64,000 bases of DNA from an uncultured Verrucomicrobiae bacterium (GTDB taxonomy: Bacteria; Verrucomicrobiota; Verrucomicrobiia; Palsa-1439). Position numbers and translations under genes: made by a program. The stretch is from positions 256,001-320,000 of the forward strand of contig CAWEWF010000001.1 in the NCBI GenBank assembly GCA_963812605.1, in the 5' to 3' direction. The notes beneath the pieces are model-generated. The model was not told where the DNA came from and made no database searches. It saw nothing but the letters and a program-made list of their open reading frames with translations. Shown in pieces: positions 1,970-44,559 of the stretch (its first letter is position 1; each line of letters begins with the position of its first letter).

Positions 1970-1992
1970 CCGGTTCACTGAAGCTGGCGGAC

Positions 1993-2021: not shown

Positions 2022-2039
2022 TCCAGCAGCCATCACGAC

Positions 2040-2113
2040 TGCCTCGTAGTGTAATGGTAGCACAACTGACTCTGGATCAGTTTGTCTAGGTTCGAGTCCT
2101 AGCGAGGCAGCCA
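2040..2113 (+). tRNA. tRNA-Gln(CTG)
   Basis: Acceptor stem TGCCTCG/CGAGGCA, D-loop GTAATGGTAGC, anticodon arm ACTGA-CT-CTG-GA-TCAGT, T-arm CTAGG-TTCGAGT-CCTAG, encoded CCA. Confidence 0.97.
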
Positions 2114-2443
2114 TTTTCAATTCTGGCCCGTAGCAATTGGTCGCGCCAGATCACAACATCACCGCTTGTTCTCTGGAGATTCCCGGGTATTCGCCACCGG
2201 GCCTACCGGCGCGTGTGATGATTCTCGGCTACCGCTCGATGTCCAGGTCGACCTTAGTCACCCGCGTAACCCATACCAGTACCGACATTTGCGGTTATCA
2301 CCCAATTGCCGAAGACGCCTAACGAGCAAGTATTTTTTGCGACGCAGCCTGCAACCGTTAAAAAAGCTTGCTTACGAGGCGGTAACCTTCTACTCTCCCG
2401 CAGTCTGAGGCGCAGTTGCGAGAAGGGAAGGAGTTTGGATCGC

Positions 2444-3220: not shown

Positions 3221-3302
3221 GGTCCCCGTCAAGGCAGAGATCCCCGTCGATACAGATCGTCCGCCGGGTCAAGGACGTTAGACGTGGTGGTCACCAGGGC
3301 GA

Positions 3303-5966
3303 ATGATGAATTCAAACCGGACTTACATTTGGCAACGGAACCGAAAATCCGGGAATGCGGGCACGGCGCGGCTTGTTGGCGATAGGACGACGACAGGAGA
3401 CCTTGCGGATAAACGAACATCGCGACGATCCGGAGTCGGAGCTCAAAGACTGTCGCCCACCTCGACGATTGCCGATGCGAACGACCGTCCGCGGGTGGAC
3501 GGCAAGTTCCTCAAGGTCAAAGGACGACGATTCTGGGTGAAAGGCGTCACCTATGGGGCGTTTCATCCCAATGCGGAAGGAGATCCATTCCCCACGCGAC
3601 AGCAGGTCGGTGATGATTTCATTCGCATGTACGAAGCCGGCGTTAACACCGTCCGCCTCTACGCGCCGCCCCCCGACTGGCTTGCGGATCTAGCCGCCCG
3701 GATCGGGCTCTACCTTGTACCGGATATTTGTTGGGGGCCGCGCAAGTGCGAGTTGGACAACGAGTATCGGCTGCGCTACATCCGAGAGTGGACACGCGAA
3801 CACGCCCGCCGTCTGGCCAACCACCCGGCGATGTTGCTCTATTCGATCGGCAATGAGATTCCTCCCCTGCTCATCCGTTGGTACGGACGAGCCCAGGTGG
3901 AGAGCTTCCTGCGGTCCCTGCATGACATCGTCAAGGAGGAATCCCCGGACGCGTTGGTGACGTATGTGAATCACCCGCCCACCGAGTATCTCCACCTCCC
4001 ATTTCTGGATGTCGTGTCCTACAACATTTTTCTGGAGCGCGAGCCCGAATTCCGCGCTTATCTGGCGCGGTTACAGAACCTTGTTGGCGATCGCCCCCTC
4101 TTGCTCACCGAGGTCGGATTGGACGCAAACCAGCATGGCGAGGTTGCGCAAGCGAAATTCCTCGACTGGCAGGTGCGCGCCGCGTTCGAGAAAGGTCTCT
4201 GCGGCGTGTCGGTTTATGGCTGGACCGACGAGTGGGGTATTTTCAATGAGACGATCCACGGTTGGTCCTTTGGTCTGACCCATGCCGATCGCCGACCAAA
4301 GGCGGCGCTCCGCACGATCACCGACATCTATCACCGCGATCTCTACCGCATGCGCCGCAAGCCGTGGCCGTTGGTATCCGTCGTGGTCTGCGGTTACAAC
4401 GCTGCGTCGACCATGGGGGAGTGTTTGCGGTCATTGGCACACCTCAGCTACCCACGTTACGAGGTGATTGTGGTTGACGACGGATCGACCGACGCCACGC
4501 ACGCGTTCGCCCTGGAGCACGGTATGCGTTGCCTCCGTGTGCCCAATGGCGGCCTGAGCAAGGCGCGCAACCTCGGCATCGAGGCCGCCCGCGGTGAAAT
4601 CGTTGCGTTTATCGATGCCGATGCCTACGCCGATCCCGAATGGCTGTACTACCTTGTCACGGCGCTGGAGGAGCACGGGGCGGCGGCGGCGGGAGGGCCG
4701 AATTTGTCGCCGCCGGGCGATGGGTTCATGGCCCAGTGTGTGGACCAGTCACCCGGCAACCCCACCTGCGTGCTTGTCGACAACGAGCGCGCCGAACACA
4801 TCCCCGGCTGCAACATGGCGTACCGCAAAAAGTATCTCCAGTGGGTTGGCAATTTCGATCCGCGCCATCGGGCCGCCGGCGACGATGTCGATGTGTGTTG
4901 GAAGCTGCTGGTCAGCGGTCGCAAGATTGTTTACAGCCCCAGCGCGGTGGTCTGGCATCATCGACGGCCTACTGTCCGCTCTTATTTGCGCCAGCAGCAA
5001 GGCTATGGGTACGCCGAGGCGCACTTGCGACGACGCTACCCCGGCCGATTCAATATGTTCGGCTACCCCGTCTGGCAGGGTGGTGTGTACGACACCGCCC
5101 ATGTTAACCTGCGCTTGCAGGGATTGCCGGTGATTTTCCGTCCGCGCGTCTACCAGGGCCAGTTTTGCGGCGCGCAGTTTCAGTCGTTATATCAACCGTT
5201 CTTGTCCTGGTGGTTTCAAGTTTTCACCCTCATCGAGTGGCAATTGCTGGCGGGCTGCACATTGTTGGCGGGGCTGTTGGGCGCGTGGCGTGAGCCGGTT
5301 ATCGGCGTGGCCACGCTGGCAGTAGCAGTGGCCATGATCGGCTTGACGATCACGGCAGCGTTGTTGGCGGGGTTCCGCGCGGCGCATTCCAAGAAATGGC
5401 GGGGTAACGAAAAGTGGCGCGGCGTAAGTACTGTGAGCACACTGTACATTGTCCAACCCATCGCCCGCGCCCTGGGCCGGGTCCGCGGATGGTGGCACCT
5501 GCGCAAGCACCGCTGGGAATTTCCCGAGGTGGATGTTCTGGAAGGCAACCTCGTCAAACGCGGTGAATGGTTGCAGCGGGTGGAAGAGCACATGAGGTCT
5601 TGTGGTTGGATCGTGCGACCCAGTAACGATTGGGGTAACGCCGATTTGGACATACTTGGGCCAGGACCCTACACGCTAAAACTCTGCTCGGTCTACGAGG
5701 AGAACCTGGAGCGGGGACAACATTTCATCCGCTACCGCGTGAAGGTCCGCATGAAACCGCACGCGCCACTGATGGTGGCCGCGCTCATGGCGAGCCTGGT
5801 GGCGATCACGCAGGCGCTGTATCTCGCGCCGCTGGCCGTACCCGTCCTACTGATTCTCCGCCGCTATGTGTGCGCCCGAAAAATGATGATCCGGGCCGTC
5901 TCCCAAAAGGCGATGGAATGCGGCTGGCCGCTGGGCATGCCCCGCGCCAAGGAGTACTCTTGCTAA
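3303..5966 (+). CDS. GH2-like TIM-barrel + GT2 glycosyltransferase fusion with C-terminal membrane helices
   Basis: 'GVNTVRLY', 'YSIGNE', 'LTEVGLD'; GT2 'VSVVVCGYN..VDDGSTD..FIDAD..GDDVD'; start uncertain. Confidence 0.85.
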   Translation: MMNSNRTYIWQRNRKSGNAGTARLVGDRTTTGDLADKRTSRRSGVGAQRLSPTSTIADANDRPRVDGKFLKVKGRRFWVKGVTYGAFHPNAEGDPFPTRQQVGDDFIRMYEAGVNTVRLYAPPPDWLADLAARIGLYLVPDICWGPRKCELDNEYRLRYIREWTREHARRLANHPAMLLYSIGNEIPPLLIRWYGRAQVESFLRSLHDIVKEESPDALVTYVNHPPTEYLHLPFLDVVSYNIFLEREPEFRAYLARLQNLVGDRPLLLTEVGLDANQHGEVAQAKFLDWQVRAAFEKGLCGVSVYGWTDEWGIFNETIHGWSFGLTHADRRPKAALRTITDIYHRDLYRMRRKPWPLVSVVVCGYNAASTMGECLRSLAHLSYPRYEVIVVDDGSTDATHAFALEHGMRCLRVPNGGLSKARNLGIEAARGEIVAFIDADAYADPEWLYYLVTALEEHGAAAAGGPNLSPPGDGFMAQCVDQSPGNPTCVLVDNERAEHIPGCNMAYRKKYLQWVGNFDPRHRAAGDDVDVCWKLLVSGRKIVYSPSAVVWHHRRPTVRSYLRQQQGYGYAEAHLRRRYPGRFNMFGYPVWQGGVYDTAHVNLRLQGLPVIFRPRVYQGQFCGAQFQSLYQPFLSWWFQVFTLIEWQLLAGCTLLAGLLGAWREPVIGVATLAVAVAMIGLTITAALLAGFRAAHSKKWRGNEKWRGVSTVSTLYIVQPIARALGRVRGWWHLRKHRWEFPEVDVLEGNLVKRGEWLQRVEEHMRSCGWIVRPSNDWGNADLDILGPGPYTLKLCSVYEENLERGQHFIRYRVKVRMKPHAPLMVAALMASLVAITQALYLAPLAVPVLLILRRYVCARKMMIRAVSQKAMECGWPLGMPRAKEYSC

Positions 5967-7786
5967 TGTTGCGAAAACTCTGGCCCTATTGGCGCGGCGC
6001 GAAAGCGGACACCTTCCTGGGTTCGGTCGTGCTGGTATTCGTGGCCGCCATGGAGCTCGTCCAACCGTGGCCGTTCAAATGGCTCGTGGATTGTGTGTTC
6101 GGATCGCGTCCCGCGCCGGCATGGCTGTCGCGCATCTGGCCGGCCTTTGCCGACCACGATGCTCCGGGTGCGATCCTGGCGGTTTGCGTGATGATTGTGG
6201 CGCTGACCGTGGTGCACCGATTGGCTGCGATGCTGGGCTCCATGCTCTGGGTGCGCGCAGGCTGGCACATCGTGTTGCAACTGCGCTGCGCAGCCTTCGA
6301 CAGGCTGCACCGGTTGTCGATGTCCTATCACGAGCGCACCCGCGTGGGCGAATCCTTGTACCGCGTCGCCTACGATGCCCATGCCGCGCAATCCCTCCTC
6401 AGCGGTTCGATCGTGCCGATCTGGAGTGCCAGCCTGGTATTCGCCGGGGTGATCGCCGTCATGTTGCGATTGGATCCATGGCTGACGCTGGCGGCGCTCA
6501 TTGTCGCGCCGCTGTTTCTGCTGACCATCCGCGGGTTTGGGCACAGAATTGACGAACTCTCCAAACGTTACCACGAGAACGAAAGCGGGTTGGTCTCGAC
6601 CATTCAAGAATCGCTCTCGTCCATCCGGGCCGTGCAGGCGTTCACACTCGAGCCCGAAACGGGCCAGCGGTTTCGCGAGCAGGCCTTGGAAAGCCGCGCG
6701 ACCAACTTGCGTCTCACCCGGACGCAATTTTGGTTCTCTGGCTGCGTGGGTCTGGTGATGACGGCCGGGACAGTGACCGTGATTTGGATCGGCGCGCATG
6801 GCGTCTTGGGCGGACGGTTGACACTGGGGGACATCCTTGTGTTTCTCGCTTATGTGGGGATGCTGTACCAGCCCATGAACGCCTTCAGCCAGGGCGTGAC
6901 CGTGGCCAAGACCGCCAACACCCAACTCCGGCGCGTGTTTGAGGTGATTGATGCGATCCCCGAGATCCGCGACCGACCAGGAGCGAAACCATTGCCAGTC
7001 GTCCGTGGAGAGGTCGAGTTTCGCGACGTAAGCTTCCAGTACGAACCCGGACGTCCCGCGCTTCGTGATGTTGTGCTAACCGTGGAACCTGGCCGGATTG
7101 TGGCAGTCGTGGGCCGCACCGGCGCTGGGAAGACCACGCTGGCAAGCTTACTCATGCGATTCTACGATCCGACCAGCGGCGCGGTGTTGCTCGACGGCCA
7201 CGACCTGCGCGATCTGCCTCTGGCGTGGTTGCGCCAACGGGTCAGCGTCGTGCTCCAGGATCCAATCATCTTCTCGACCTCCGTTGCGGAGAATATCGCG
7301 TATGGCCGACCGGGGGCGACACGCACGCAAATCGAGGAAGCGGCGCGCCGGTCACAGTCCGGCGATTTCATCCTCGCGTTGCCGCAAGGTTACGATACGG
7401 TGCTGGGCGAACGGGGAGTTAATTTATCCGGCGGGCAGCGCCAGCGGTTGGCCATTGCCCGCTCATTGCTGAAGGACGCGGCGATTCTGGTGCTCGATGA
7501 ACCAACTTCCGCCGTGGATTCAGAGACGGAGCGGGCGCTGCTGGACGGTGTTAACGAGCTGGCGAAGAACCGCACGATGTTCATCATCTCCCACCGTTTG
7601 TCCACCGTACGACTGGCCGATCTGATTGTGGTTCTCGACAATGGACGAATCGCGGAGCGCGGCACGCACGCGGAACTGATGGGGCACGACACAGCGTACC
7701 GTCGTCTCTACCTCAACCAGTGGGGACCCGAGGACAGGTCGGCCAGCGATCTTGCGGCTGCCGTTTCCCCGGTATGGAAATCGTGA
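5966..7786 (+). CDS. ABC exporter, fused permease/ATPase (MsbA-like fold)
   Basis: N-terminal TM domain; Walker A GRTGAGKTT, LSGGQ, LDEPT; TAATG overlap with the upstream stop. Confidence 0.93.
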   Translation: MLRKLWPYWRGAKADTFLGSVVLVFVAAMELVQPWPFKWLVDCVFGSRPAPAWLSRIWPAFADHDAPGAILAVCVMIVALTVVHRLAAMLGSMLWVRAGWHIVLQLRCAAFDRLHRLSMSYHERTRVGESLYRVAYDAHAAQSLLSGSIVPIWSASLVFAGVIAVMLRLDPWLTLAALIVAPLFLLTIRGFGHRIDELSKRYHENESGLVSTIQESLSSIRAVQAFTLEPETGQRFREQALESRATNLRLTRTQFWFSGCVGLVMTAGTVTVIWIGAHGVLGGRLTLGDILVFLAYVGMLYQPMNAFSQGVTVAKTANTQLRRVFEVIDAIPEIRDRPGAKPLPVVRGEVEFRDVSFQYEPGRPALRDVVLTVEPGRIVAVVGRTGAGKTTLASLLMRFYDPTSGAVLLDGHDLRDLPLAWLRQRVSVVLQDPIIFSTSVAENIAYGRPGATRTQIEEAARRSQSGDFILALPQGYDTVLGERGVNLSGGQRQRLAIARSLLKDAAILVLDEPTSAVDSETERALLDGVNELAKNRTMFIISHRLSTVRLADLIVVLDNGRIAERGTHAELMGHDTAYRRLYLNQWGPEDRSASDLAAAVSPVWKS

Positions 7787-21919: not shown

Positions 21920-23945
21920 TTGTTGGCCCTTCGCAACGCCAACCAGGCGGTTTCGATCGACAAGGCCAGCGCTGCTACGAGCACCGTCCACCACCACCAG
22001 GGTTGCTGCAAGATGGCCGCGAACGTTTGCTCGAATACCGGATCCACCAGTGGCCAGCGCCGCATGTTGCGCGGTGCGCGGCACCTGCCAGGCGGCCAGC
22101 GCGTCCGGAACCGCGACGTACTTCAGGATCGACTCCTTCGGCGAAGGGTTGACGCTGATCATCTTCTCCACGGTCGGATTTGCGTCGTACGTCAGCGCGT
22201 ACAAGCCCGGCACCAGCGGCGCGACAAACTGCGCCCGGTGATTGATGACCGCCGTGCGCGACAATTCGCGCGGCCCATCATGCAGCACCACGTCGCGCAC
22301 GGGGGAATCGCCGGGCAGGTTGACGAATGCAGGCGTCGCCGGGTTCGAAATTCACGGGCGTCGTGTCCTCGGCGCGCGCCTGTTGCAGGCAGAGGTCGAG
22401 GAACGGAATGAAAGTCGGGTGTATCGGCCAGTTCGTTTGGTCGCGGTCGAGTCCAAAACTGCACACGAACAGCTTGCCCTTCGTTTTCGTCCCTTGAAAC
22501 AACAGCACGTCGCCGGACTGCGAAAACGCCAGCGGAATTGCCGTGGCTGACTTCAGGCGCGCGTGCCGTCGCACGGTCACTTCGGCAAGATTCCCGAAAT
22601 CAGACGACACAAACGCGTGAAAAATGGGATTATTGGCGTAGACATACTGAAAGACGGTCGGCTCGGTCGATTCCCCCTGGACTTCGAAGTCGAGTTGGCG
22701 CAGCAGGTCCGTCAACGGCACGCTGAGACGATTCACCAGGAGCACCACACCGGAGCCGGCGTCGAGCCAGCGCATGACCAGCTTGCGCGCCTCCTCGGAC
22801 TGCAAGAAGTTCCCCTCGACGCACAGCACTTCTTCGCTCCGCTCCGCGGCGGCCTCGGCCGACAGGCGTGACGGTTCCAACAGGCGGGTGGCCCATTGCC
22901 CCTTCATGATCTCCGGCGACAACGCGAGCCGAAGGTACGGGGATCGCGCCAGGAGCGCCACGCGGCCTTCCCGCACCGGCGGGACGGCGAAGAAAGCGCG
23001 ATTATCGCCGGGCAATGCATCGGGAGCGCCTTGCACGGTCATTTCGCCCTGCAGCCACAATGTCGGGTCGGCCTCCCATTGGGCCTGCAAGACGATCGAG
23101 TCCGATGAGCCGGTCAAATCAACGGTGCGGTTGAAAATGCCCTGGCCGTTCACCGTCAGGGCGACCACCGCCTGCTTCGCATCGCCCTGATGACTCAAGG
23201 GCACCGTGCAGTTGATGAGTGATTTATCACCCAGAAAGACGCGTTGAACGTTTGGCTCGCCCAATGCGAGATTGGGCGCCGAGGTCGCCGTGACCGCCGG
23301 CAGTGTCACCTCGACATTTTGCAGGAACGGCGGCGTGGCGGTGGATTCCGACCATTGGTTTTCCTGGTTGTCGCCGAGAAGAACAATGCGCTTGCGTTCA
23401 CCCAGCGACTGGCTGAGCAGTGTGTTGGCCTGGCGGAAGGCGGCCAGGTACGAGCCGCGCTGGAAAGAAGGCGTCAGCTCGAGCAGTTTTTGTTTCACAA
23501 GCTGGCGGTCCTCGCCGAACGCCGCCAACACGCGCGGCCGCGCGGTCAGTTCGATCACCGCGATTTGGGTCTCGATTCGCGCCTGGCCAAGTTCTTTCAC
23601 AAGCCGGTCGCGGTCTTGCGCAAAGCCATTGTTGGCCTGGTGACTGAAGGTGTTGTCCAAAATATAAACCCGGCTCTCCGTGATCGCCGCGCGCGCGCCC
23701 TCGCGGCGATAGGGCCAGGCAAACGCCGCGGCCAACAGCAACAGCGCGAGCGCCCGCAGCGCCAGCAGCAGCAGGTCGCGCAACTGCAACGGGCTGCGTT
23801 TGGGGAAGGGTTGGTCGCTCAGAAAGCGGACGGCGGAAAACGGCGTGAGATTCTGCTGCTGTTTGCGACGCAGGTGCAACCACACCGGCGCGCCGATGGC
23901 CAGCGCTCCCAGCCAGAGCAGGGGATGAAGAAACGACAGGTTCAT
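21916..23945 (-). CDS. BatA-domain / vWA protein (about two frameshifts in the 3' part)
   Basis: 'FLHP..W.G..AI..PVWLHL..K...F.A..FL'; 'LDNTFS'; the C-terminus continues in other frames to 'WWWW..ETAW' and a stop at 21916. Confidence 0.8.
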
Positions 23946-24865
23946 TTCAGCCGCTTCCTCTCCGCGAGAAACAGCGCCAGCGCCGGCCAGGGACTTTCGT
24001 CCGTGCGTACGATGCCGTGCGGCATCTCCAGGTTGCGGAACAATTCCCGGTGCCCTGTCATGAACTCGCCGAATCGGGCGAGGTACCGCTCGCGTGCAGC
24101 ACCGGGGACGACCAGGCGCCGTTCGCCGCTTTCGAGGTCCTCGAACACGCGGTCGGTGTCGAATGGAAACTCGATTTCATCGCGGTCCAGCACTTGAAAC
24201 ACGACGACTTCGTGGCCATGGAAACGGAGTTGCTTGAGGCCCAGCGCCACTTCCTCGGACGGTTCCAACAAATCGGAAAAGAAAAAAATCACGCTGCGTC
24301 GATGGACGAGCCGCGCGGTGTCGGCCAGGAGTTTTCCGAGACAGGCGCCGCCCGCCGGCCGCAAGCCGTCGAGACGGCGGAGCATCAACCCGAACTGGGT
24401 CGGTTGTTGCGAGGGGCGGATGAACTGCGTTGTTTCCTTGACGCCATCCAGGGCCACCAGACCAGCCGCGTCATTTTGCTTCAACAAAAACCACGTCATG
24501 GCCGCCCCGAGGATCCGCGCGCAATCGAGCTTCGAGCCCCAGGCCCGATCCCCGCGATACGACATGGAGGCGCTGGTATCGCAGACGATGTAGAAGCGGA
24601 CATTGGTTTCCTGCATGTACCGCTTGATGCAGAGGCGGTCGTTCCGCGCATACAACCGCCAATCCACATGCCGCAGATTGTCGCCCGGTTGATAGTCGCG
24701 GTAATCGCTGAATTCGACGCTGAACCCGTGAAACGGGCTTTCATGCAGGCCGCTGAGGAACCCCTCCATGACGTAGCGCGCTTTGAAGTCCAGTCCTTGC
24801 AGCGTAGCCAGCACTTGCGGATCAAAACCCGCCAGCGAGGGTGTCGCACTGGACGAAGCAATCAT
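23942..24865 (-). CDS. DUF58 domain protein
   Basis: 'GLHESPFHGFSVEFSDYRDYQPGD.LR.VDWR.YAR', 'DTSASM', 'FSDL'. Confidence 0.93.
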   Translation of the reverse strand: MIASSSATPSLAGFDPQVLATLQGLDFKARYVMEGFLSGLHESPFHGFSVEFSDYRDYQPGDNLRHVDWRLYARNDRLCIKRYMQETNVRFYIVCDTSASMSYRGDRAWGSKLDCARILGAAMTWFLLKQNDAAGLVALDGVKETTQFIRPSQQPTQFGLMLRRLDGLRPAGGACLGKLLADTARLVHRRSVIFFFSDLLEPSEEVALGLKQLRFHGHEVVVFQVLDRDEIEFPFDTDRVFEDLESGERRLVVPGAARERYLARFGEFMTGHRELFRNLEMPHGIVRTDESPWPALALFLAERKRLK

Positions 24866-24872
24866 GGCACGG

Positions 24873-25901
<1,029 letters not shown>

Positions 25902-30329: not shown

Positions 30330-33300
30330 ATGAGTGAAACTTCACCACCGGCCATCACCAAAGAATTGCTGCGGGAACTCGGGGATTGGCGCGTTGACAA
30401 GGAAGGCCGGCAACTCGCCGAGTCCGGTCGCGTGGCCGATCTCCAGTACAATCCACCCATTCTTTCCGGTCAGGTGTGCACCGCCGGCGGCGCCACTGTT
30501 ACTGCCCGACTCAAGGTCGGCAAAGGCCCGCTCGACACCGAGAACCAATGCAGTTGCCGCCAGGCGCGCGTGGAGGGGATTATTTGCGCGCACATCGTGG
30601 CGCTGGTGTACGCGTGGCTTAATAAAGACGCGGCGCGCCCAGCAGTTCTCCCGAAGTCGGTTGAGTCACCGCCGTCGTTTCCTCGCGTGACCGGCATTCC
30701 GACGCTGGAATTGGCCGTGTTAGTACCCGCGAATTTCAGCCAGGCGTGGCGTAGCGGCGCGCTGCAGGTCATTCTCGAAGCCAGCATCAACGGCGGCCCG
30801 CTCCGTCCATTCCACACGATTCCGTCACAACCGGCCACGCCGTACGTCGTCAGCGAGGAGGATGAGAAACTGCTCGGCGCGATCGAGCGGCTCAATGCGG
30901 GTCAGGTACCGGCGATTTGGCGACTGAAGGATTTCGAACGTTTTTTTCACGGCGCTGGCCGGTCATCCGCGCGTGATGCTGGGCAAGAAAAGCGTGCTTG
31001 CCGTACGAACCGCCGCAGAACGACCGAAGGTCTTTCTCGATCTCCAACCCAACGGCGAACTGCAACTGCGCGCCGCAGCGGTTCCCAGCGGTTCCGGTGA
31101 AATGCTGGGGGCGTGGAGAGTTTGATGGGACGAACCTGGAGCGCGTGGGTCCTGGCGTGGCCAACAGAATAATTGCTCGCGCGGAGGTGCCGCGGTTTTA
31201 CGAGCAGGAATTGCCGACATTGGAACAACAGGCGGATGTGGTCGGCAACGCGGTCTTCGAGCAACTGGAATTCTCGGTGGCGACCCCGCGCATCCGCGCC
31301 ACGGTGGACGGCACATTGACTGCCGTGAGCGTAAAATTGGAGGCGGTATATCCGGGTCGCACATTCCCGCTAACCGATACGCCGCTGCGCGACTGGCTGC
31401 CAGACCCGAACAACTCGCTACGATATTGGACGCGCGATGTGGCGGCGGAGCGCGCCGCGCAGCAGGCTGTCGTTACGGCGGGCTTTACAGACGCGTTGCG
31501 GTCCGAGCCGTCGGTGGGATTCTTCCTCGCCAATGTCCTCCCGCGTTGGCGCGATCAGTGGGAAGTGGTCGTCGGTGACCGCCTGCAGGCGCTTCTTGCC
31601 AGATGCGAAGTCATTGCTCCCGAAGTCACGATTCGCTCCGCTGGCAACGACTGGCTGGCGGTAGACATGGCTTTCAAGAATGAACGCGGGGAATCTCCAT
31701 TGACGCCGGTCGAGGTGCGGCAACTTTTGCAGAAGGGGCGTGGCGCATCAACGGCTCGCGAATGGCCGCATCGCGCTCGTGAACACGGAAGCCATGCGGG
31801 AGTTTCAGGAAGTAGTTTTCGATTGCGAAGCGCAGCAGACCGGCGACGGGACTGCAAATTCCCACGGCGTTTCGGCGCGTACTTGAAAGAGGCTGCCCGG
31901 GAAAACAAATGGCAACCGCCAACGGCGCTCACGCCACCGCCAGACCTGGCTTTGCCCGGCAACCTCGCCAACCAGTTGCGTCCGTACCAACGCACCGGCG
32001 TCAACTGGCTCGAGCATCTCGGCGCAAACGGACTCGGCGGCATTCTGGCCGACGAAATGGGCCTGGGTAAAACAATCCAGGCACTCGCGTGGCTGGCGGC
32101 GCGGAAAGGGGCGAAACCTTCGCTGGTGATTTGCCCGACAAGCCTGGTGACCAACTGGCAGGCCGAGGCCGCCCGGTTCACGCCGGGATTGAAAACGTTG
32201 CTGTTGCACGGGCCAAATCGGCAGGCGCGATTCGCCGACATTGCGAGTCACGACCTGGTGATCACGTCCTATGCCTTGTTGCGACGCGACAGCGAACAGT
32301 ATGCCCGATGGGAGTTCGACACGGTCATCCTCGACGAGGCGCAGCACATCAAGAACCGTTTCAGCCAGAATGCGCAGGCGACCAAGGCGCTGCGGGCGGC
32401 GCGGCGCCTGGTACTCACCGGCACGCCGATGGAAAACTCGCTCGACGACCTCTGGTCGATCTTCGATTTCCTGATGCCGGGCTATCTCGGCCCGGCCAAG
32501 GAGTTCCAGGACCGTTACGAGACGCCGATCGCGAAGACTGGTGACGCCGCGGCGTTGCGCCGGTTGCGGCAGCGACTGCGACCATTCGTGCTGCGGCGGA
32601 CAAAGGCCGAGGTCGCGCCGGAATTACCGGCCAAGATCGAACAGGTCGCGCTGTGCGAGATGAGCGCGGAACAGCAGTCCGTGTATCAGGCGATCCTCGA
32701 ACAGGGGCGGCGCGAGGTTTTCGAGCACGCCGGCAAAGGTGGCGAGGCGCAGCAGCGAATGACGGTGTTGACGACGCTGACCCGGTTGCGGCAGGCGTGT
32801 TGTCATCTGGGACTGTTGCCGGCGCGTGACGGGAAAACGTGGAGCGAACCGTCGGCAAAACTGGAACTGTGCCTGGAGTTGATCGAGGAAGCGCGCAGCG
32901 GCGGACATCGAGTGCTGGTTTTTAGCCAATTCGTGAGCCTGTTGCGGCTGCTGGAGACCGCATTACGGGCGCAGGAGATCACGTGGTGCTATCTCGACGG
33001 CGCGACGGTGGATCGCCAGGGCGAAGTGCGGCGGTTTCAGGAATCGCCGGACATTCCCGGTGTTTCTCATCAGCCTGAAGGCCGGCGGGACCGGGCTGAA
33101 CCTGACCGGGGCCGATACGGTCATTCATTTCGATCCGTGGTGGAACCCCGCCGTGGAAGAACAGGCGACCGCCCGCGCCCATCGCATCGGGCAAACGAAG
33201 ATCGTCACTTCCTACAAACTTATCGCGCAAGGTTCGGTGGAGGAGAAGATCATCCGCCTGCAGGAGAAGAAGAAGGAACTTATCGCCAACACGCTCGCGA

Positions 33301-33359
33301 CCGACGAAGCTTTTGTGCAATCGTTGACGTGGGATGAGTTGCAGGGTCTGCTGGAGTAA
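30330..33359 (+). CDS. SWIM zinc finger + SNF2-family helicase/ATPase (several frameshifts)
   Basis: 'CSC......ICAH'; '[10 protein letters not shown]', 'DEAQ', 'LTGTP.EN', '[11 protein letters not shown]', 'RAHRIGQ' across three track ORFs. Confidence 0.88.
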
Positions 33360-33362
33360 GCC

Positions 33363-35232
33363 ATGGCCGCGCTCTCACCCGCTCTGATTTCCGCCAACGG
33401 ATTGGCCCTGGCCTACGGGGCGGCGCCGTTGTTGGAAGAGGTCACGTTGTCCATTGCGCCCGGTGAGAAGGTTGGGTTGGTCGGGCGCAATGGGTGCGGG
33501 AAGACGAGCTTGTTGAAAATTCTGGCGGGCGAAGTGACCGCGGATGCCGGGGAGATTTCGCGGCGGCGCGGGTTGCGGGTCGGTTATCTGCCGCAGGAAT
33601 TTGAACTCGATGGCAGCCGAACGGTGCAACAGAACATCGAAGCCGGCGCGGCGGACCTGTTGGACTGGATTGCGCGGTACGAGGCGGGCACCGGCGGTGA
33701 CGACGAGTTGGCGGAACTACTGCACCAGATCGAGGGGGCGGACGGCTGGAACCTGTCCTCGCGGATCAACGCCAGCACCACCGCGCTGGGCGCGCCGCCG
33801 CTGGAGGCGCTGGTCGGCCCGCTTTCCGGCGGCGAGAAACGGCGCGTGGCGCTGTGCCGGGCGCTGGCGGCGCAACCGGACCTGCTGCTTGTTGGACGAA
33901 CCGACCAATCATCTCGACGCGGAATCGATCCGCTGGCTTGAAGAATTTCTCCAGCGGTTTTCGGGCGCGGTGATTTTTGTGACGCACGACCGGTATTTTC
34001 TCGATGTTATTGCCACGCGGATCATCGAACTCGACGGCGGCCGGTGCTACTCGCATCCCGGCAACTACACGGCGTACCTGGAATCGAAAGCGATCCGGCA
34101 ACAGATCGCCGAGCAGTCGGAACGCCGCCGCCAGCGGTTTCTGCGGATTGAATTGGAATGGGTGCGCGCGGGTGTGCGGGCGCAACGGTCGAAATCGCAC
34201 CACCGGCTGGACGCGTTCTACCAGGTGGCCGGGCTGGAAGCGCCGCCGGAAGAACGCGAGATGGATTTGCTGATTCCGCCGGCGCCGAAACTGGGCAACA
34301 TCGCCGTGGATGTCGAGGAAGCCGGCGCGAAGGTGGGCGAACGCTGGCTCTTCCGCAACCTGACGTTCCAGTTGAAGCCCGGGCAATGCACCGGTGTGGT
34401 GGGACGCAACGGCGTTGGCAAGACCACGCTGCTGCGTCTCTGTCTCGGTGAGCGTGCGCCCGACGCGGGCAGCGTGGTTATCGGGAAAAAGGTGGTGTTC
34501 AATTACATCGACCAGGCGCGAATGCAGTTGACGGACACGAACACGGTGTTGAGCGAGGTGGCGGGTGGCAGCGACATGGTGGTGTTTGGCGGCCAGACGA
34601 TGAGCGCGCGGAGTTATTTGCGGCGGTTTCTGTTTGCCGACGACCGGATGAACGAGCCCGTGGAGCATCTCTCCGGCGGCGAACGCGCCCGGCTGATGCT
34701 GGCGAAGGTGCTAAAACGCGGCGGGAACGTGATCGTGCTCGACGAACCGACCAACGACCTCGATTTGCCCAGCCTGCGGATGTTGGAGGAAGCACTGGCG
34801 GATTTTGAGGGCAGCGTGCTCGTGGTCAGTCATGACCGGTATTTTCTCGACCGGATCTGCGACCAGATCGTGGCGTTTGAGGACGGCGGCGTGTTCGTCC
34901 AGCCCGGCAACTACTCGTATTACCTGGAGAAACGCCAGCAGCGCGAGCGGACGCCGGTGCGGGTCACGGAACCGATCGCGGTTGCAACTCAAGCGCCGCG
35001 TCCCCGCAAGCTGAACTTCAAGGAGCAACGCGAACTGGAAGGCATGGAAGCCGCGGTGTTGGCCGCCGAAACGCGCATCACCGACCTGGAGCAAACCTTG
35101 AACGAGCCCGGGTTTTACGTCACCCGCGCGAAGGAAGCGCCGGGTCTCGTTGCCGAACTCGCCGCCGCCAAGGACGAAGTGTCCCGTCTCTATGCCCGCT
35201 GGGCGGAATTGGATCAGGTCGGTCAGCCTTGA
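33363..35232 (+). CDS. ABC-F family ATP-binding protein (Uup-like), frameshift near 33890
   Basis: Two ABC cassettes (GRNGCGKT, GRNGVGKT; LSGGE; DEPTN) and a C-terminal 'KL.FKEQREL' coiled coil. Confidence 0.9.
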
Positions 35233-38837: not shown

Positions 38838-38865
38838 TTGCTTTTTCCTATAGGTCAGCTATAAT
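38838..38865 (+). promoter_or_regulatory. Sigma70-type promoter upstream of the FRG gene
   Basis: TTGCTT (38838-38843), 16 bp spacer, TATAAT (38860-38865). Confidence 0.6.
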
Positions 38866-38925
38866 CGAAACTCGCAGGCAGTTTAGCGCCACGGCGCGCC
38901 GAGATGCCGCAAAAACAGAACGACC

Positions 38926-39741
38926 ATGCCAACGCCCACACCGCGTCGCCGTCGAGAAATTGCCAGAAGGTATCGTGACTGCCCCATTGATTGTCCTAGG
39001 CACTTCGATACGGAGATTGCTCGGTTGAGCGACTTTTTCAGTGTATTCCAGTCGCTCCTTGGACCTGGGAAAATTTTCTGGTTTCGAGGTCACGACAACA
39101 TGACGTACGAGTTGTCCCCCTCCGCACTTCGGTATGACACTGAACAAGAGCGAAACAAGGCCCTTGGGCTTGTGGCCGATATGAAGCGATTCTTGGGTAT
39201 GAAACTACTGCGACCCCCGGGACCGAATGACCATCTGGGCTGGCTGCAGGTAGCCCAACACAATGGACTCCCCACTCGACTTTTGGACTGGACGCAGAAT
39301 GCAGCCGTCGCACTCTTTTTCGCTTGCTGGAGGAAATCGGCGAAGAGACGGTCTCGTCGTTATTCTGGATCCGACCGAATTGAACCAGCGTGTAGATCCG
39401 AAAGATCCTCGCATTTTTGACAGTGAACGCGACTCTGCAGTTATTGAGCCGTACTTTGCCCTAGGGGAAAAATTAACCCGGGAGGCAAGCGCACGATCGC
39501 GTTGAATCCGACTTGGAACACCGACCGCATCGCTTTGCAGCAGGGGTACTTCACGCTCCATGGAAGTCGCCGCTTCCAGTTGGACAGAAAGCAAGCCAGT
39601 CCACTCTTGTATGTCCCGATTCTTCGCGAACACAAACCGGCACTTCTGAGTGAACTGGAGCGCGTCGGCATCGGCGAGATGTTTATCTTTCCAGAGCCCG
39701 AACACGTCTGTAGCCATCTACGGAGACTCGCCCAACTCTAA
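38926..39741 (+). CDS. FRG domain protein (frameshifted)
   Basis: 'WFRGH....Y.L.PS..R', 'AQHNGLPTRLLDWT.N..VALFFA', then 'RI..Q.G.FT' and 'L.R.GI....IFPE' in following frames. Confidence 0.9.
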
Positions 39742-39748
39742 GGTACCT

Positions 39749-40910
39749 ATGGCAGATTACATTCCATTCCTCACCAGTCAAGCGGCGCTCAAACTCGTGA
39801 GAAACATTTATCACGACGCAGAAGTTGTGCATGTGCCCCTAGAGGCGGCAGCGAAGCTAATCCCAACTCCCGGCTCAATGAAACTATGGCTTGACTCTGG
39901 CGTAGATGGTTTCGACGACATTGCAAGTCGTCAGATGAATTCCCCTTGGTACCAACTCATCGCAAGTCCTCGTTTCGAATATCGCCAGCTCCGGATTCCT
40001 TAGTAAGTATAATAAAAATCAGGTCAAACAATTTGTCGAAGCGCTTCTGGATCAATGTAAGTCCTACAAACCAGCTTGGATTACCGTACCGCAGACTCCC
40101 TTTTGTGAACAACTCGACGCGGAACAAAATTAATCGCGCCCTCGCCCAAGCATCTGGCCAGTGGAAGAGTTCACGCAGCTTTTCTGGGCGGCTTATTCTT
40201 CCCATGGTCTTTACAAACCAAAATCAAGTTAATGGAAAGACCCACGCAATCCCAAGGTCGAGCAGGCCGCACGCTGTTACCATGAGGCACAAGCAGACGG
40301 TTTCTGGGTGGTGGACGCAAGCCTCGAAGATGACAGCGGTTCGAAGACGCTTCGCAATACACGATTTCCCGAGTTAGTCGCTCTACATCAAGAACTCAAT
40401 GACAAAATCCCATCCAAAATCAGGATCGGGGGCCCATACTGGGCAATGAATCTTGTTCTCTGGGCCAGAGGCCTTGTGGACCATCCGGCCATCGGCGTGG
40501 GAGGTGCTTACCGGTACAATTTGTCCGGTGGTCAAGCTAACACCCCCATTGTTCGCCTTGCGGTCAGCCCCTTGCGTCGCCGGGCTACCGTTCCGCAACT
40601 AAAGCCTTGGCTGGACCAAGCCCTTAAGATCTCAGGCCCTGGGCATCCTGCACACGCAGAGATCGACACACTCCGAAAAAATTTCGCACTTCTTAGCAAT
40701 CCGGAATCGGCTAGACAACAAGTAGCTACGTTTTACAAGCAGTGGTTCGATTCGCTCGCAGCGACACCGCGACTTGGTCGCTCGCTCGCACTCTTTCAGG
40801 ATCTCTCAACTGCTTTTGCTCTTGGCCGGTCACTACCAGACTTTTCAGGGGGAGGAACGTCACGAAGGCCGGAATCCGTGGTGGAACCACTAATGCTCAA
40901 CTGCCTTTAG
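39749..40910 (+). CDS. Hypothetical ~385-aa alpha/beta (TIM-barrel-like) protein, possibly beta-protein/sce7725-like (about three frameshifts)
   Basis: ATG 8 bp after the FRG stop; joining frames gives 'KLWLDSGVDG..WITVPQLP..RLILP..ADGFWVVD..RIGGPYW'; family assignment is tentative. Confidence 0.55.
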
Positions 40911-41582
40911 GTGCGTCCTCCAAAACTTTTCGATACAGTAGAATTGGACAACATTATCTAGCATCGACGGCGGTTGTTGCGAGCGAATCAGAATATCACA
41001 TGACGACGGCGTGACCGCTAGTATACCTACGCCATCATTCAAAAATGCCTCCCATCGACTAGGCTTGTCGGCGACTCGACTGGCTAATTGTTCGGGGAGG
41101 GCGACGTATGATTCATTGGCGAATGCAAGATTGTTTCGTGCTTGCCACAATGCCTCTTCGACCCGCTTTAGTTTTAGCTCAACCGCCATCAGTCGCTTGT
41201 GCAATGGCATCCAGCCGTTTAATCTTTGAAGTCGGTCGCCCGATAAGCGCTGAATGAAACGATCAGTTACCAAGCGCTGAGTTTCTTGAAAAACAACGTC
41301 GCGAGGAATAATTGAAGCGCACTCTCGTGCCAACCGTTGCAGCGTAATAGACGCATGCGTGGCGGCATCCGGAATGCGATGTAAAAGTGCTGCACGCCTC
41401 ATCGAATTGATTGCACGCGTTTGACGGAGTTTTTGTCTGCGCTTGACGTTGCCTTTCCTAAAGCCTACGCCAACAAGATCGCACATTCCCCATGGCGTGA
41501 TAAACTCCGATTTGACGGCCAGATTCAACGATTGCATCCACTGCAAAACCGGCTTCATCATGTTAGCTTCGGCCTTGAACAT
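40890..41582 (-). CDS. PD-(D/E)xK nuclease-fold protein (MmcB/sce7726-like) with a helical insertion
   Basis: 'E..M', 'EF..PWG.CDLV', 'AVELKL....AL.QA..N..FA..SYVA', 'GVGIL.V'. Confidence 0.7.
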   Translation of the reverse strand: MFKAEANMMKPVLQWMQSLNLAVKSEFITPWGMCDLVGVGFRKGNVKRRQKLRQTRAINSMRRAALLHRIPDAATHASITLQRLARECASIIPRDVVFQETQRLVTDRFIQRLSGDRLQRLNGWMPLHKRLMAVELKLKRVEEALWQARNNLAFANESYVALPEQLASRVADKPSRWEAFLNDGVGILAVTPSSCDILIRSQQPPSMLDNVVQFYCIEKFWRTHLKAVEH

Positions 41583-41828
41583 TCATTTACCTCCTCTTAA
41601 TGAATGACGCTGCGCTTTGGACCGCAATTTTCTATGCCCATTTATTTCCGGGAGATCTCCCTGCTTCACCATTGCCTCAAGTGTTCGAGATACGACCCGC
41701 TCTGCCGCGTCTGCAGGATTTTTTCCATAAAAACCCTTCGCCACCAATCTCTCTAGGTAGGCATTTACCTGCGGAGTTGTTGAAATTGTAAGGGGGACTG
41801 TTCCGACACTGTTTTTCTTCCTAGGCAT
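41583..41828 (-). CDS. Small ribbon-helix-helix-like regulator/antitoxin
   Basis: 81 aa; strand 'LTIST', helix, 'G.YG.NPADAA' turn-helix; its stop abuts the ATG of the nuclease gene. Confidence 0.7.
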   Translation of the reverse strand: MPRKKNSVGTVPLTISTTPQVNAYLERLVAKGFYGKNPADAAERVVSRTLEAMVKQGDLPEINGHRKLRSKAQRHSLRGGK

Positions 41829-41846
41829 AACAATGACATTATAATG
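41826..41846 (-). promoter_or_regulatory. Possible -10 box and autoregulatory operator of the RHH gene
   Basis: Palindrome CATTATAATG (41837-41846) contains TATAAT about 10 nt before the ATG; related CATAACAATG copy at 41826-41835. Confidence 0.5.
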
Positions 41847-42077
41847 GCTTACTTATCAGAATAACGCAACGCAATTCTGCTATATTGTTGAGCTATTCCA
41901 GTCTAAATTGTGGGTCCCGGTAGCTCGTGTCGAGACAAGTCAGATGGCAAACACGAGAACAACAGAAATCCTTCGACAAACTCAAGATGACGAATTGGAG
42001 AATTAGGCGGGAGCCGAGCGGAATTCTCGCTTAGGGCGACTCTGTGCTCTTTGTGTAGGTTCTGTGGTAGACAGGCA

Positions 42078-42540
42078 AGACCCTTCGCTTCGCTCAGGGT
42101 GACAACTGAATCGGGGTAGATGGCCATGCCGATTTGGGAATCGAGGCAGCGCACCCACCCCTTTATCCCCTCCGAGGAGGGGAACTTGCCGGACCGGCGC
42201 CTCGACAGAGCGAGGCGACTACACCGAATGGCCGCACGTTTATCGTAAAGCGATATTTTGCTGGACAGGGTGCGGCGGGATGGGTATGATCAATGTGTGA
42301 ATTATGAATTGGAGTGCAGCGGCGGCAAACAGAACGGCGCCCCCTTCGGTCCGACGCAGGGCAGGTGCCGAGCGCCGCTACAGCGGACTGGCAACGGTGA
42401 CGACGTCAGGGGAGTAGAGGTCGTAAAAACATGTGTTTCTGCGAAACGAACCGGATTGGCCTACGCGAAATTACGAGTGGATGTGACAGCGCGGCAGGGA
42501 CTTATGGCGCGCGCGCGAATTTTTACAATCGGGTTCGTTT
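42078..42540. repeat. Cluster of REP-like hairpins and inverted repeats
   Basis: ACCCT-N11-AGGGT-GACA (42080-42104); TCCCCTCC-GA-GGAGGGGA (42166-42183); GTAG-type REP on the minus strand (42198-42222); CGGCGC...GCGCCGCTACA (42335-42382); 13/14 IR at 42444-42457 / 42527-42540. Confidence 0.65.
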
Positions 42541-42752
42541 TTTTTGGATGTAAGACTCGGATGCGGACGAAGAAAGAATGCGAACGGGAGTCGCGACGGT
42601 GACGACCCTTCCGCATTCAACGGAGAGCGGACAGATTCAACAGGCGAGACGGCTGTTCAACGCGGGACGGGGTCAGGAACTTTGGCATTGCTTTGAAAAC
42701 AGACGGAGGCGCAGTATTCGGTTGCACAGCGACGAACCAAGTGAGGCGAATT

Positions 42753-43352: not shown

Positions 43353-43364
43353 AGGCTGATCTTG

Positions 43365-44152
43365 ATGCGCATGAGATCGATCTTCCTCTTCGCGGCCCTG
43401 CTCCCCACGCTGGCCATGGCCGCCGAGGTCATTCCACCGGCGCCGGAGCAGTATTTCAACGATTACGCCCACGTCGTGTCGCCCGCGACAGCCAACGAAC
43501 TGAACCAAAAGCTCGAGCAGTTCGAACGCGACGCCTCCAGCCAGATCCTGGTCGTTATTTATCCCAAGATGCAATCGGATTCCTCGATTGAGGATTATAC
43601 CGTTCGCGTCGCGCAATCGTGGGGCATCGGGCGGAAGGAAAAAAATAACGGCGCGGTGCTGTTCGTATTCGTCCAGGACCGCAAAATGTACATCCAGGTT
43701 GGGTACGGACTGGAGGGGGCGCTGCCCGACGCGTTGGCGAAGCAGATCATTGATAACGAGATCACGCCGCACTTTCCGCGACGGCGATTTTGACGGCGGG
43801 TTGCGCGCGGGGGTGACGGCAATTCTTCAGGCAACAAAGGGTGAATACAAGGGTACGGGTCAAACGGTGGCGGACCAATTTGCGAAACATCGCACGCCGA
43901 TACCGTGGCCGTTGGTGATCTTCATTGCTTTCATGATTTCTGGGCTTATCGGACGGCTACTCATCGGCACATCGGGAGGAACAGTGTATTCGGGTGTCGG
44001 ACGAGCCGTCGCTTACGGCGCTTTGAGTGGAATGTGGAGCGGGGGCGGCGGCGGTTTCTCTTCGGGTGGCGGTGGCGGGGTTCAGGAGGCGGTGTGGATT
44101 TTCAGGAGGCGGGGGAAGTTTCGGCGGCGGTGGCGCCGGGGGAAGCTGGTGA
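43365..44152 (+). CDS. TPM domain protein with Gly-rich tail (frameshifted)
   Basis: 'WGIG.K..NNG.....DRK.YIQVGYGLEGALPD'; tail 'GGG.FGGGGAGGSW'. Confidence 0.88.
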
Positions 44153-44156
44153 GGAG

Positions 44157-44559
44157 ATGAAGACGAAGGATTTATTCCGCGAACTGGATCACGAGCGGAT
44201 TACCGCAGCCATCCAAGAGGCGGAGAAACGCACGTCGGGTGAAATCCGCGTGTACGTGAGCCATCGCAAGGTCCGCGACCCGCGCCACGCGGCGGCGCAT
44301 CATTTCGTGAAGCTGGGCATGGATAAAACGAAGCAGCGCAATGCGGATCCTGATTTTCATCGCGCCGGAATCGCAGAATTTCGCGATCCTGGGAGACACG
44401 GCGGTGCACGCCCGTTGTGGCGAAGCATTTTGGGAAAGCATCGCCGGAGCCATGCGCGAGCTGTTTCGGCAGGGAAAATTCACCGAAGGAATCGTCCACG
44501 GAATCAACGCAGCCGGGAAGGTGCTCGCGCAACATTTTCCGGCGGACAAGGGCGGGTGA
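44157..44559 (+). CDS. TPM domain protein (frameshift near 44345)
   Basis: 'I..AI.EAEKRTSGEIRV', 'F..LG...T..RN', 'FAILGD', 'F.QGKF.EGI'. Confidence 0.85.

What the first reader, a model, noticed from the sequence alone, without database searches (positions are those of the whole stretch)
38838..41846. Candidate undescribed anti-phage module: FRG -> TIM-barrel-like >< PD-(D/E)xK nuclease <- RHH
Seen: a ~3 kb block, visibly AT-richer than its flanks (not computed), with two convergent two-gene operons, each with its own TATAAT promoter. The inner genes overlap by 21 bp at their 3' ends. Established (from recall): FRG has been proposed to be an ADP-ribosyltransferase-like fold; satellite phage P4 gop-beta-cII is an anti-phage toxin/antitoxin locus with gop and beta convergent on cII; beta-like sce7725 and sce7726 genes occur as a pair, often with an NAD-consuming RES gene. 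Inference: this block has the same layout and similar protein sizes, with FRG in the effector slot, a divergent beta-like protein as antitoxin or sensor, an sce7726-like nuclease, and an added RHH regulator. The beta-like assignment is the weakest link.
Basis: partly seen in the sequence, partly recalled or inferred. Interest (0 to 1): 0.85.

Follow-up and report, generated by a model that had tools for sequence, protein, structure and literature searches.

The report
Mobile FRG, TGT-fold, nuclease gene trio
This low-GC islet carries a three-gene module, seen in many environmental bacteria, that looks like an untested anti-phage or toxin-antitoxin-like system built from an NAD-enzyme-like protein, a new barrel-shaped partner and a DNA-cutting enzyme.

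Summary
The block is real. GC is 0.45-0.55 against 0.59-0.67 in the flanks, and it is missing from 40 related genomes. It holds FRG (PF08867, PADLOC candidate PDC-S15) followed by a 393-aa protein (G2) on one strand. These converge on a 230-aa protein (NUC), and the 3' ends overlap by 21 nt.

G2 and NUC belong to no Pfam, NCBIfam, PADLOC or PHROGs family. Models show G2 as a TIM barrel closest to tRNA-guanine transglycosylases and DpdA. NUC is a PD-(D/E)xK nuclease with an inserted winged helix.

The trio is strongly conserved. In 80 loci seeded on G2, NUC was present in 72 of 72 with room and FRG in 66 of 67. The upstream 'RHH' gene is not conserved.

The layout equals phage P4 gop-beta-cII, but profile comparisons find no homology. 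A same-genus genome carries a true Beta/sce7726 module at the same chromosomal site.

FRG-G2 binding is supported by a complex model (0.68 against 0.01 for the best control).

Here FRG has two frame breaks and G2 three. Three housekeeping genes nearby are broken in the same way, so assembly error is likely.

This scan had already noted the same trio in another genome. Function is untested.

The parts
38860..38865 (+). TATAAT hexamer 60 nt upstream of the FRG start; candidate -10 box only
   Evidence: Read from the sequence. Not reported by the two-hexamer promoter scan.
38926..39741 (+). FRG-domain gene (about 271 aa when whole), in three frame pieces here, with frame breaks within 39331-39340 and 39467-39471
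   Evidence: PF08867 E 1.5e-19. PADLOC PDC-S15 E 8.6e-28 and 3.9e-13 on the two outer pieces. Breaks placed against intact relatives.
39749..40910 (+). G2: about 393-aa TIM-barrel protein of a new family with a TGT-like fold, in four frame pieces here, with breaks at 39978-39979, 40095 and 40243-40244
40890..40910 (.). 21-nt overlap of the convergent 3' ends of G2 and NUC
   Evidence: In relatives the overlap is 14 nt in 49 of 72 and 32 of 57 loci, and 20 nt in 10 and 12.
40890..41582 (-). NUC: intact 230-aa PD-(D/E)xK-fold nuclease with a winged-helix insert (about residues 42-126)
41583..41828 (-).
   Evidence: No Pfam, PDB or PHROGs match. Absent from 62 related loci. One credible relative in 300 other genomes of the phylum, in another context.
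41838..41845 (.). Palindromic ATTATAAT that gives TATAAT on the - strand 9 nt before the ATG of the 81-aa ORF; candidate -10 box only
   Evidence: Read from the sequence. Not reported by the scan on the - strand.

Best explanation
The islet is a horizontally acquired copy of a widespread three-gene conflict module, and I think it most likely works like P4 gop-beta-cII, as a toxin-antitoxin-like, abortive-infection type of anti-phage system.

FRG is an ADP-ribosyltransferase-superfamily protein proposed in print to be an NADase, and I read it as the effector. G2 is co-translated just downstream. It is a new TIM-barrel family with a TGT-like fold, and I propose it binds FRG and holds it in check or gates it. 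NUC is encoded convergently with overlapping 3' ends. It is a PD-(D/E)xK nuclease with a winged-helix DNA-binding insert, and I propose it acts as a DNA-sensing partner or second effector.

Shown here: the folds, the conserved catalytic-type motifs, the strict co-occurrence and gene order, the mobility, and a model-level FRG-G2 interface.

Inferred, not shown: toxicity, NAD+ use, what triggers the system, and any phage protection.

The 81-aa upstream ORF is a local regulator-like add-on. The copy in this window has five frame breaks, more likely from the assembly than from decay.
For: FRG: PF08867 at 71.2 bits against a cut-off of 25, and PDC-S15. PMC9503650 (passages seen) calls Frg an ART-superfamily member and a possible NADase effector of prokaryotic immunity.

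Co-occurrence:
- In 80 metagenome loci seeded on G2, NUC was present in 72 of 72 with room and FRG in 66 of 67.
- In 62 genome loci seeded on NUC, 57 of the 59 with a full-length NUC have G2 adjacent, and 45 of 52 with room have FRG.
- The convergent 3' overlap is conserved.
- Identities of the three proteins to the window's copies rise and fall together across 42 loci, Spearman 0.72-0.82. Related loci are not independent.

Mobility:
- Absent from 40 relatives, 17 of them in the same genus.
- Record titles span Verrucomicrobia, Planctomycetes, Acidobacteria, delta-proteobacteria, Gemmatimonadetes, Zixibacteria, Ignavibacteriales and others.

Defence context: 10 of 59 genome loci have a clear defence gene among the two nearest ORFs per side. 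These include BrxL, BrxC, HmaC, type I/III R-M parts, Mrr, SoFic and bSEFIR. Integrases or transposases lie in 4 loci.

Parallel with P4:
- Same layout as P4 gop-beta-cII. That system protects against lambda and P1, and gop is toxic without beta (PMC9122126, passages). It is triggered to cause cell death by a phage gene (bioRxiv 2023.04.06.535777, passages).
- In same-genus genome G004, the site between prfC and lemA holds Panacea, an 87-aa ORF, Beta_protein (E 9.3e-56) and a convergent sce7726 protein (hhalign 99.6%).

Complex model of G2 and FRG: score 0.68 (runs 0.68, 0.00, 0.79), best of 3 controls 0.01. That mark was reached by 116 of 157 solved complexes and 2 of 215 mismatched pairs. 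Contact agreement between runs was at least 0%, and partner pLDDT at least 78. The interface uses G2's most conserved C-terminal motif and FRG residues next to the FRG motif.
Against: - No experiment exists.
- G2 and NUC show no sequence relation to Beta or sce7726: hhalign probability 1-2% and 0.6%. FRG shows none to gop, 0.14%. The P4 parallel therefore rests on layout, fold class and shared insertion site only.
- I could not model P4 beta or cII to compare folds.
- One of the three complex runs scored 0.00, and my own alignments were outside the tool's calibration.
- G2 keeps many invariant polar residues at barrel positions: D50, Q122, K170, D201, Y237, N241. That suits an enzyme better than a passive antitoxin.
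- 49 of 59 genome loci have no recognised defence neighbour, and no background control was run.
- Only 2 loci were found in 2.9 million viral contigs.
- Burroughs and Aravind 2020 (PMC7685563), which first linked Frg to immunity, is not held and may already describe partners.
Confidence: 0.45

Rival explanations
1. A modification-based restriction-like system. G2 would be a nucleic-acid transglycosylase in the manner of DpdA or TGT. Perhaps together with the ART-fold FRG, it would write or remove a base or ADP-ribose mark on DNA or RNA. NUC would be the endonuclease that tells marked from unmarked nucleic acid.
For: - Invariant acidic and polar residues lie at barrel strand ends.
- Convergent gene pairs are common in restriction-modification systems (general knowledge).
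Against: - No sequence relation to the TGT family: PF01702 not hit in 38 members, and hhalign against 28 TGTs gives 0.07%.
- No conserved Cys/His zinc cluster in G2.
- None of the 139 flanking ORFs was a preQ0/queuosine synthesis or ParB-like DpdB gene.
- NUC stands intact without G2 and FRG in 2 loci, and without FRG in 7. That would be hard to survive if NUC cut unmarked self DNA.
Confidence: 0.2
2. A selfish addiction (toxin-antitoxin) cassette of mobile islands with no role against phages. It would persist because its loss kills or harms the cell.
For: - Patchy, cross-phylum spread, and absence from 40 relatives.
- Integrases or transposases beside it in 4 loci.
- Tight gene coupling and the predicted FRG-G2 complex.
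- A Panacea-antitoxin-containing cassette at the same site in a sister genome.
Against: - Known relatives by layout (gop-beta-cII) do protect against phages (PMC9122126).
- FRG is in PADLOC's candidate list.
- BREX, R-M, Hma and SoFic neighbours lie in 10 of 59 loci.
- The two roles do not exclude each other.
Confidence: 0.15
3. On the state of this copy only: FRG and G2 are true pseudogenes. The module would be dead in this genome while NUC survives.
For: - Five single-base frame breaks fall in about 2.0 kb of FRG and G2, and none in about 0.94 kb of NUC plus the 81-aa ORF.
- Only one of the five lies in a long homopolymer (G4A5).
- ORFs of 0.9-1.4 thousand codons elsewhere in the window are unbroken.
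- Split or missing FRG or G2 with NUC intact occurs in other loci.
Against: - Three conserved chromosomal genes in the same 14 kb carry the same kind of break. These are the SNF2 helicase at 33059, ABC-F near 33.91 kb, and the TPM-domain gene near 43.78 kb, which is a single ORF of 256-257 aa in two same-genus genomes.
- The genome is a 15-contig, 90%-complete assembly.
- Four of the genome loci with split genes have titles of the same kind of MAG series.
- No reads could be laid.
Confidence: 0.35

Closest known systems
Satellite phage P4 gop-beta-cII anti-phage, toxin-antitoxin-like locus, and the wider Beta_protein (PF14350) / sce7726 (PF26915) gene pairs
   Same: The layout is the same: a variable first gene, then a protein of about 355-393 aa on one strand, converging on a protein of about 230-264 aa with an E-D-ExK motif. 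Both sit in variable hotspots. A true Beta/sce7726 module, also with overlapping 3' ends (38 nt), occupies the same prfC-lemA site in a same-genus genome.
   Different: No detectable homology: G2 against Beta 1-2%, NUC against sce7726 0.6%, FRG against gop 0.14%. NUC has a winged helix inserted between the D and ExK strands, whereas sce7726 has them 12 residues apart followed by a C-terminal extension. P4's genes are separated by 27 nt holding an annotated terminator and do not overlap.
PADLOC candidate PDC-S15 (single-gene FRG-domain candidate)
   Same: The FRG protein matches 14 PDC-S15 models, the best over most of a 276-position profile.
   Different: PDC-S15 is filed as a single gene. Which PDC-S15 members have these partners was not examined.
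Dpd 7-deazaguanine DNA modification system (DpdA transglycosylase) and tRNA-guanine transglycosylases
   Different: No sequence relation. No zinc-site cysteines. No DpdB or preQ0 genes were seen nearby. The partner genes are different.
3dnx (SPO1766) and restriction-type PD-(D/E)xK nucleases (PaqCI, XisH-like 2okf, NucS)
   Different: NUC carries a winged-helix insert of about 85 residues. Identity is 13% and no profile match exists. That 3dnx stands for the MmcB-like/DUF1052 family is my recollection, not a tool result.

Membership tests
FRG domain (PF08867) | Match to the Pfam model above its gathering score | tested here: met
   71.2 bits against a cut-off of 25, E 1.5e-19, profile positions 3-92 of 94. 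The FWFRG motif is invariant in 32 orthologues.
FRG domain as ART-superfamily NADase | NAD+ binding and hydrolysis or ADP-ribosyl transfer | not testable with these tools
   Only a published proposal (PMC9503650, passages).
PADLOC PDC-S15 | Match to the PDC-S15 protein models | tested here: met
   E 8.6e-28 (N-terminal piece) and 3.9e-13 (C-terminal piece) to PDLC04938.
Beta_protein (PF14350) / sce7725-type | Sequence-profile match of gene 2 | tested here: not met
   0 of 38 G2 members hit PF14350 or any NCBIfam sce7725/beta model at E up to 1. hhalign of A2 against a 38-member Beta profile gives 1.1-2.1%. No PF14350 match in the window's own genome.
Beta_protein (PF14350) / sce7725-type | Shared fold with P4 beta | not tested
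P4 beta was not named among the 50 best BFVD rows.
sce7726 family (PF26915; P4 cII) | Sequence-profile match of gene 3 | tested here: not met
   0 of 38 NUC members hit it at E up to 1. hhalign of A1 against a 35-member sce7726 profile gives 0.6%. As a positive control, the G004 neighbour scored 99.6%.
gop-beta-cII system | Three-gene layout: first gene and second gene on one strand, converging on the third | tested here: met
   P4 record compared.
gop-beta-cII system | First gene homologous to gop | tested here: not met
   hhalign of A5 against P4 gop gives 0.14%.
PD-(D/E)xK nuclease superfamily | Core fold plus an acidic/lysine catalytic motif | tested here: met
tRNA-guanine transglycosylase / DpdA family (PF01702) | Sequence-profile match | tested here: not met
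   0 of 38 members at E up to 1. hhalign against 28 TGTs gives 0.07%.
tRNA-guanine transglycosylase / DpdA family (PF01702) | TGT-type TIM-barrel fold | tested here: met
tRNA-guanine transglycosylase / DpdA family (PF01702) | Zinc-binding Cys/His cluster (feature recalled from the TGT literature) | tested here: not met
   The only near-invariant Cys in A2 is C392, in the C-terminal LMLNCL.
Dpd system | DpdB and 7-deazaguanine synthesis genes in the neighbourhood | tested here: not met
   None among 139 flanking ORFs of 59 loci. Only the two nearest ORFs per side were scanned.
Ribbon-helix-helix regulators | Profile or structure match of the 81-aa ORF | tested here: inconclusive
   No Pfam RHH family at E up to 1. 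No PDB or PHROGs match. The strand-helix-helix pattern is my reading of the sequence only.

The most novel reading that the evidence does not exclude
G2 is a new kind of nucleic-acid ribosyl/base-exchange enzyme. It would work on the product of the ART-fold FRG protein, either writing or erasing an NAD-derived mark such as an ADP-ribosylated or exchanged base on DNA or RNA. The winged-helix nuclease would read that mark. This would be an immunity logic that joins ADP-ribosylation chemistry with transglycosylase chemistry, and it would be distinct from both Dpd and DarTG.
Probability: 0.15. Interest if true: 0.9.

Novelty: new variant of a known kind. Interest (0 to 1): 0.7.

Why it matters
Two of the three proteins belong to no curated family, yet they form one of the most rigidly conserved small gene arrangements I could measure. 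G2 has 315 cluster representatives among 1.84 billion. The module is spread across many little-studied phyla.

If it defends against phages, it adds a new effector-partner-nuclease system. It would also give a first handle on the unexplained mechanism of P4 gop-beta-cII-type loci, because an analogous cassette sits at the same hotspot in a sister genome. It also puts the FRG domain, so far only a proposed NADase, into a testable three-part setting. One intact copy lies in a cultured, harmless strain (L049).

Tried and rejected
- **Sequencing runs:** none was listed for the islet, so reads could not settle the frame breaks and read laying was not used.
- **Non-coding RNA:** tRNA and Rfam scans of 36-45 kb found nothing.
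- **PDB profile searches:** profiles of NUC, G2, Beta and sce7726 gave nothing meaningful.
- **ESM Atlas:** only unnamed clusters came back for G2 and NUC.
- **PHROGs:** no family for G2, NUC or the 81-aa ORF.
- **BFVD:** only weak phage TGT-like rows, best E 6.8e-4.
- **P4 proteins as single sequences:** comparing them against my profiles was uninformative, so I built family profiles. These were also negative.
- **Beta_protein in the phylum:** 1 of 201 genomes.
- **RNA at the G2/NUC overlap:** the fold was not unusual, z -1.61, with 18 of 200 shuffles as good.
- **L052:** the 234-aa ORF in the FRG slot is not FRG-like, 1.25%, and has no PADLOC or PHROGs hit.
- **Gene upstream of NUC:** no conserved small ORF family across loci.
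- **PADLOC cross-hits set aside as housekeeping:** Mfd, DnaG, DprA, a class-V aminotransferase (SspA/DndA-model hit), RmuC and a HEAT-repeat protein.
- **Literature:** searches for 'FRG domain' plus defence, Frg/ART/transglycosylase, PDC-S15, sce7725/sce7726, gop-beta-cII and FRG-domain variants found no description of this trio in the held library. PMC7685563 is not held. bioRxiv supplements were not seen.
- **Frame breaks as evidence of decay:** I first read them as decay and as evidence that NUC is harmless alone. I dropped that after finding like breaks in three housekeeping genes.
Full report
**What is there**

The stretch 38.75-42.0 kb has GC 0.45-0.55, while both flanks run at 0.59-0.67.

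On the + strand lie an FRG-domain gene (38926-39741) and, 7 nt later, a second gene, G2 (39749-40910). On the - strand an 81-aa ORF (41583-41828) abuts a 230-aa gene, NUC (40890-41582), with AGGAGG ahead of the NUC start. G2 and NUC overlap by 21 nt at their 3' ends.

FRG is read in three frame pieces and G2 in four. The breaks lie within 39331-39340 and 39467-39471 in FRG, and at 39978-39979, 40095 and 40243-44 in G2. I placed them against intact relatives and confirmed them with family models.

The two-hexamer scan reported neither, and it found fewer sites than shuffles give.

**The three proteins**

FRG:
- Matches PF08867 at 71 bits and the PADLOC single-gene candidate PDC-S15.
- A paper of the Aravind group places Frg in the ADP-ribosyltransferase superfamily and suggests an NADase effector role in prokaryotic immunity (PMC9503650, passages).

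NUC:
- Has 41 relatives in the 5.8-billion-sequence collection, none with a Pfam domain.
- Thirty-eight aligned sequences keep E26, D35, E135, K137 and Q147.
- Residues of about 42-126 match winged-helix domains.

G2:
- Because it is broken here, I aligned 38 intact orthologues from fetched loci.
- The family hits nothing in Pfam, NCBIfam, PADLOC or PHROGs.
- It has 315 cluster representatives among 1.84 billion proteins.
- The model of the L008 orthologue (pLDDT 94.6, pTM 0.92) is a TIM barrel.
- The likeness is structural only. hhalign against 28 TGTs gives 0.07%, and the zinc-site cysteines are missing.

**Conservation**

- A scan of one genome per species, seeded on NUC, gave 62 loci. Of the 59 with a full-length NUC, 57 have G2 convergent beside it. 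FRG is present in 45 of the 52 with room. All three genes are intact in 37.
- A metagenome scan seeded on G2 found 316 relatives, of which 80 were kept. NUC was present in 72 of 72 loci with room, and FRG in 66 of 67. All three were intact in 41.
- The 3' overlap is itself conserved: 14 nt in 49 of 72 and 32 of 57 loci.
- Identities of the three proteins co-vary across 42 loci, rho 0.72-0.82. Related loci are not independent.
- Two viral contigs also hold the intact trio.
- The 81-aa ORF was found in none of the 62 genome loci. It has one credible relative in 300 other genomes of the phylum, in another context.
- Locus L049, from a cultured Solidesulfovibrio strain, has an XRE-type HTH gene upstream of NUC instead.

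**Mobility and context**

- The islet's DNA is absent from 40 relatives, 17 of them in the same genus.
- The window starts with dnaA and dnaN.
- The islet lies between a BNR-repeat gene and a cluster of dispersed repeats (42070-42545) ahead of lemA.
- Among 139 flanking ORFs of 59 genome loci, 10 loci have a clear defence neighbour, 4 have an integrase or transposase, 2 have PIN proteins, and one has a D5-type primase. No background control was run.

**Comparison with P4**

The P4 record shows gop (133 aa) then beta (355 aa), converging on cII (264 aa, annotated sce7726 family).

That locus protects against lambda and P1, and gop is toxic without beta (PMC9122126, passages). A phage gene triggers it to cause cell death (bioRxiv 2023.04.06.535777, passages).

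Profile-profile tests find no homology:
- G2 against Beta: 1-2%.
- NUC against sce7726: 0.6%.
- FRG against gop: 0.14%.

The strongest new link is positional. In same-genus genome G004, the site between prfC and lemA holds a Panacea-domain gene, an 87-aa ORF and a true Beta_protein (E 9.3e-56). Convergent on these, with a 38-nt overlap, is a true sce7726 protein (99.6%). Two unrelated-by-sequence cassettes of the same architecture thus occupy one hotspot.

**Mechanism**

A complex model of G2 with FRG passed: score 0.68 (runs 0.68, 0.00, 0.79), best of 3 controls 0.01. That mark was reached by 116 of 157 solved complexes and 2 of 215 mismatches. Run agreement was at least 0%, and partner pLDDT at least 78.

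The interface uses G2's most conserved C-terminal helix (about 342-369) and FRG residues beside the FRG motif.

I therefore favour an effector (FRG) gated by G2, with NUC as DNA sensor or second effector, by analogy with gop/beta/cII. These steps are inferred.

The main rival is a modification-based system that uses G2 as a transglycosylase. The fold supports it. Against it stand the lack of TGT sequence features, the lack of preQ0 or DpdB genes nearby, and loci with NUC alone.

**State of this copy**

I first took the five breaks for decay. But an SNF2 helicase (extra G at 33059), an ABC-F gene (near 33.91 kb) and the TPM-domain gene (near 43.78 kb) are broken in the same way. The TPM-domain gene is a single ORF in two sister genomes.

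The genome is a 15-contig, 90%-complete assembly, and no reads were available. I put about two to one on assembly error. I draw no functional inference from the breaks.

After my own analysis, a look-up showed that this scan had already noted the same trio on another genome: an FRG, TGT-fold and nuclease trio in about 90 loci, with Dpd as closest known. My results agree. They add the P4 parallel, the sister-genome hotspot and the FRG-G2 model.

No paper in the held library describes the trio. Burroughs and Aravind 2020 could not be read.

Noticed in passing
window 30998-33337 (break at 33059), 33360-35232 (break near 33.91 kb), 43362-44160 (break near 43.78 kb): Three conserved chromosomal genes each change frame once: an SNF2-family helicase, an ABC-F ATPase and a TPM-domain gene. 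The TPM gene is a single 256-257-aa ORF in two same-genus genomes. This points to indel errors in the assembly or to widespread gene decay.
   Followed up: partly
window 42070-42545: A gene-free stretch right of the islet is made of short dispersed repeats of about 30-150 nt. Many copies lie elsewhere in this genome and in same-genus genomes. These may be MITE- or REP-like elements marking an insertion hotspot.
   Followed up: no
L154 (G004:C22) 1773-4277: At the same prfC-lemA site, a same-genus genome carries SocA/Panacea, an 87-aa ORF, Beta_protein and a convergent sce7726 protein with a 38-nt 3' overlap. This is a four-gene variant of the P4-type module.
   Followed up: partly
L153 (G012:C57) 705-7600: In another same-genus genome the BNR gene is fused to a full alpha-L-rhamnosidase (1251 aa). 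A PadR regulator and unknown ORFs fill the space before lemA, so this site varies between species.
   Followed up: no
window 29-1969: The C-terminal part of dnaA and a complete dnaN open the window, so the islet lies about 37-40 kb from the likely replication origin.
   Followed up: no
L049 (Solidesulfovibrio alcoholivorans DSM 5433) 687-3781: A cultured strain holds an intact trio with an XRE-type HTH gene upstream of NUC. It is a practical source for experiments.
   Followed up: no
L052 4995-8275: An atypical locus. NUC and G2 are 476 nt apart instead of overlapping, and an unrelated 234-aa ORF stands in the FRG slot.
   Followed up: partly
L164 (G158:C43) 1501-2011: The only clear relative of the 81-aa ORF (43% identity over 60 residues) is followed by another 81-aa ORF. 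It may be a small two-gene cassette unrelated to the trio.
   Followed up: no
window 22278-25901: A BatA, DUF58 and MoxR-type AAA gene row (the aerotolerance-operon type), which is ordinary. N-terminal methylation-motif/DUF1559 proteins are also present, and I recall these as typical of Planctomycetes-Verrucomicrobia.
   Followed up: no
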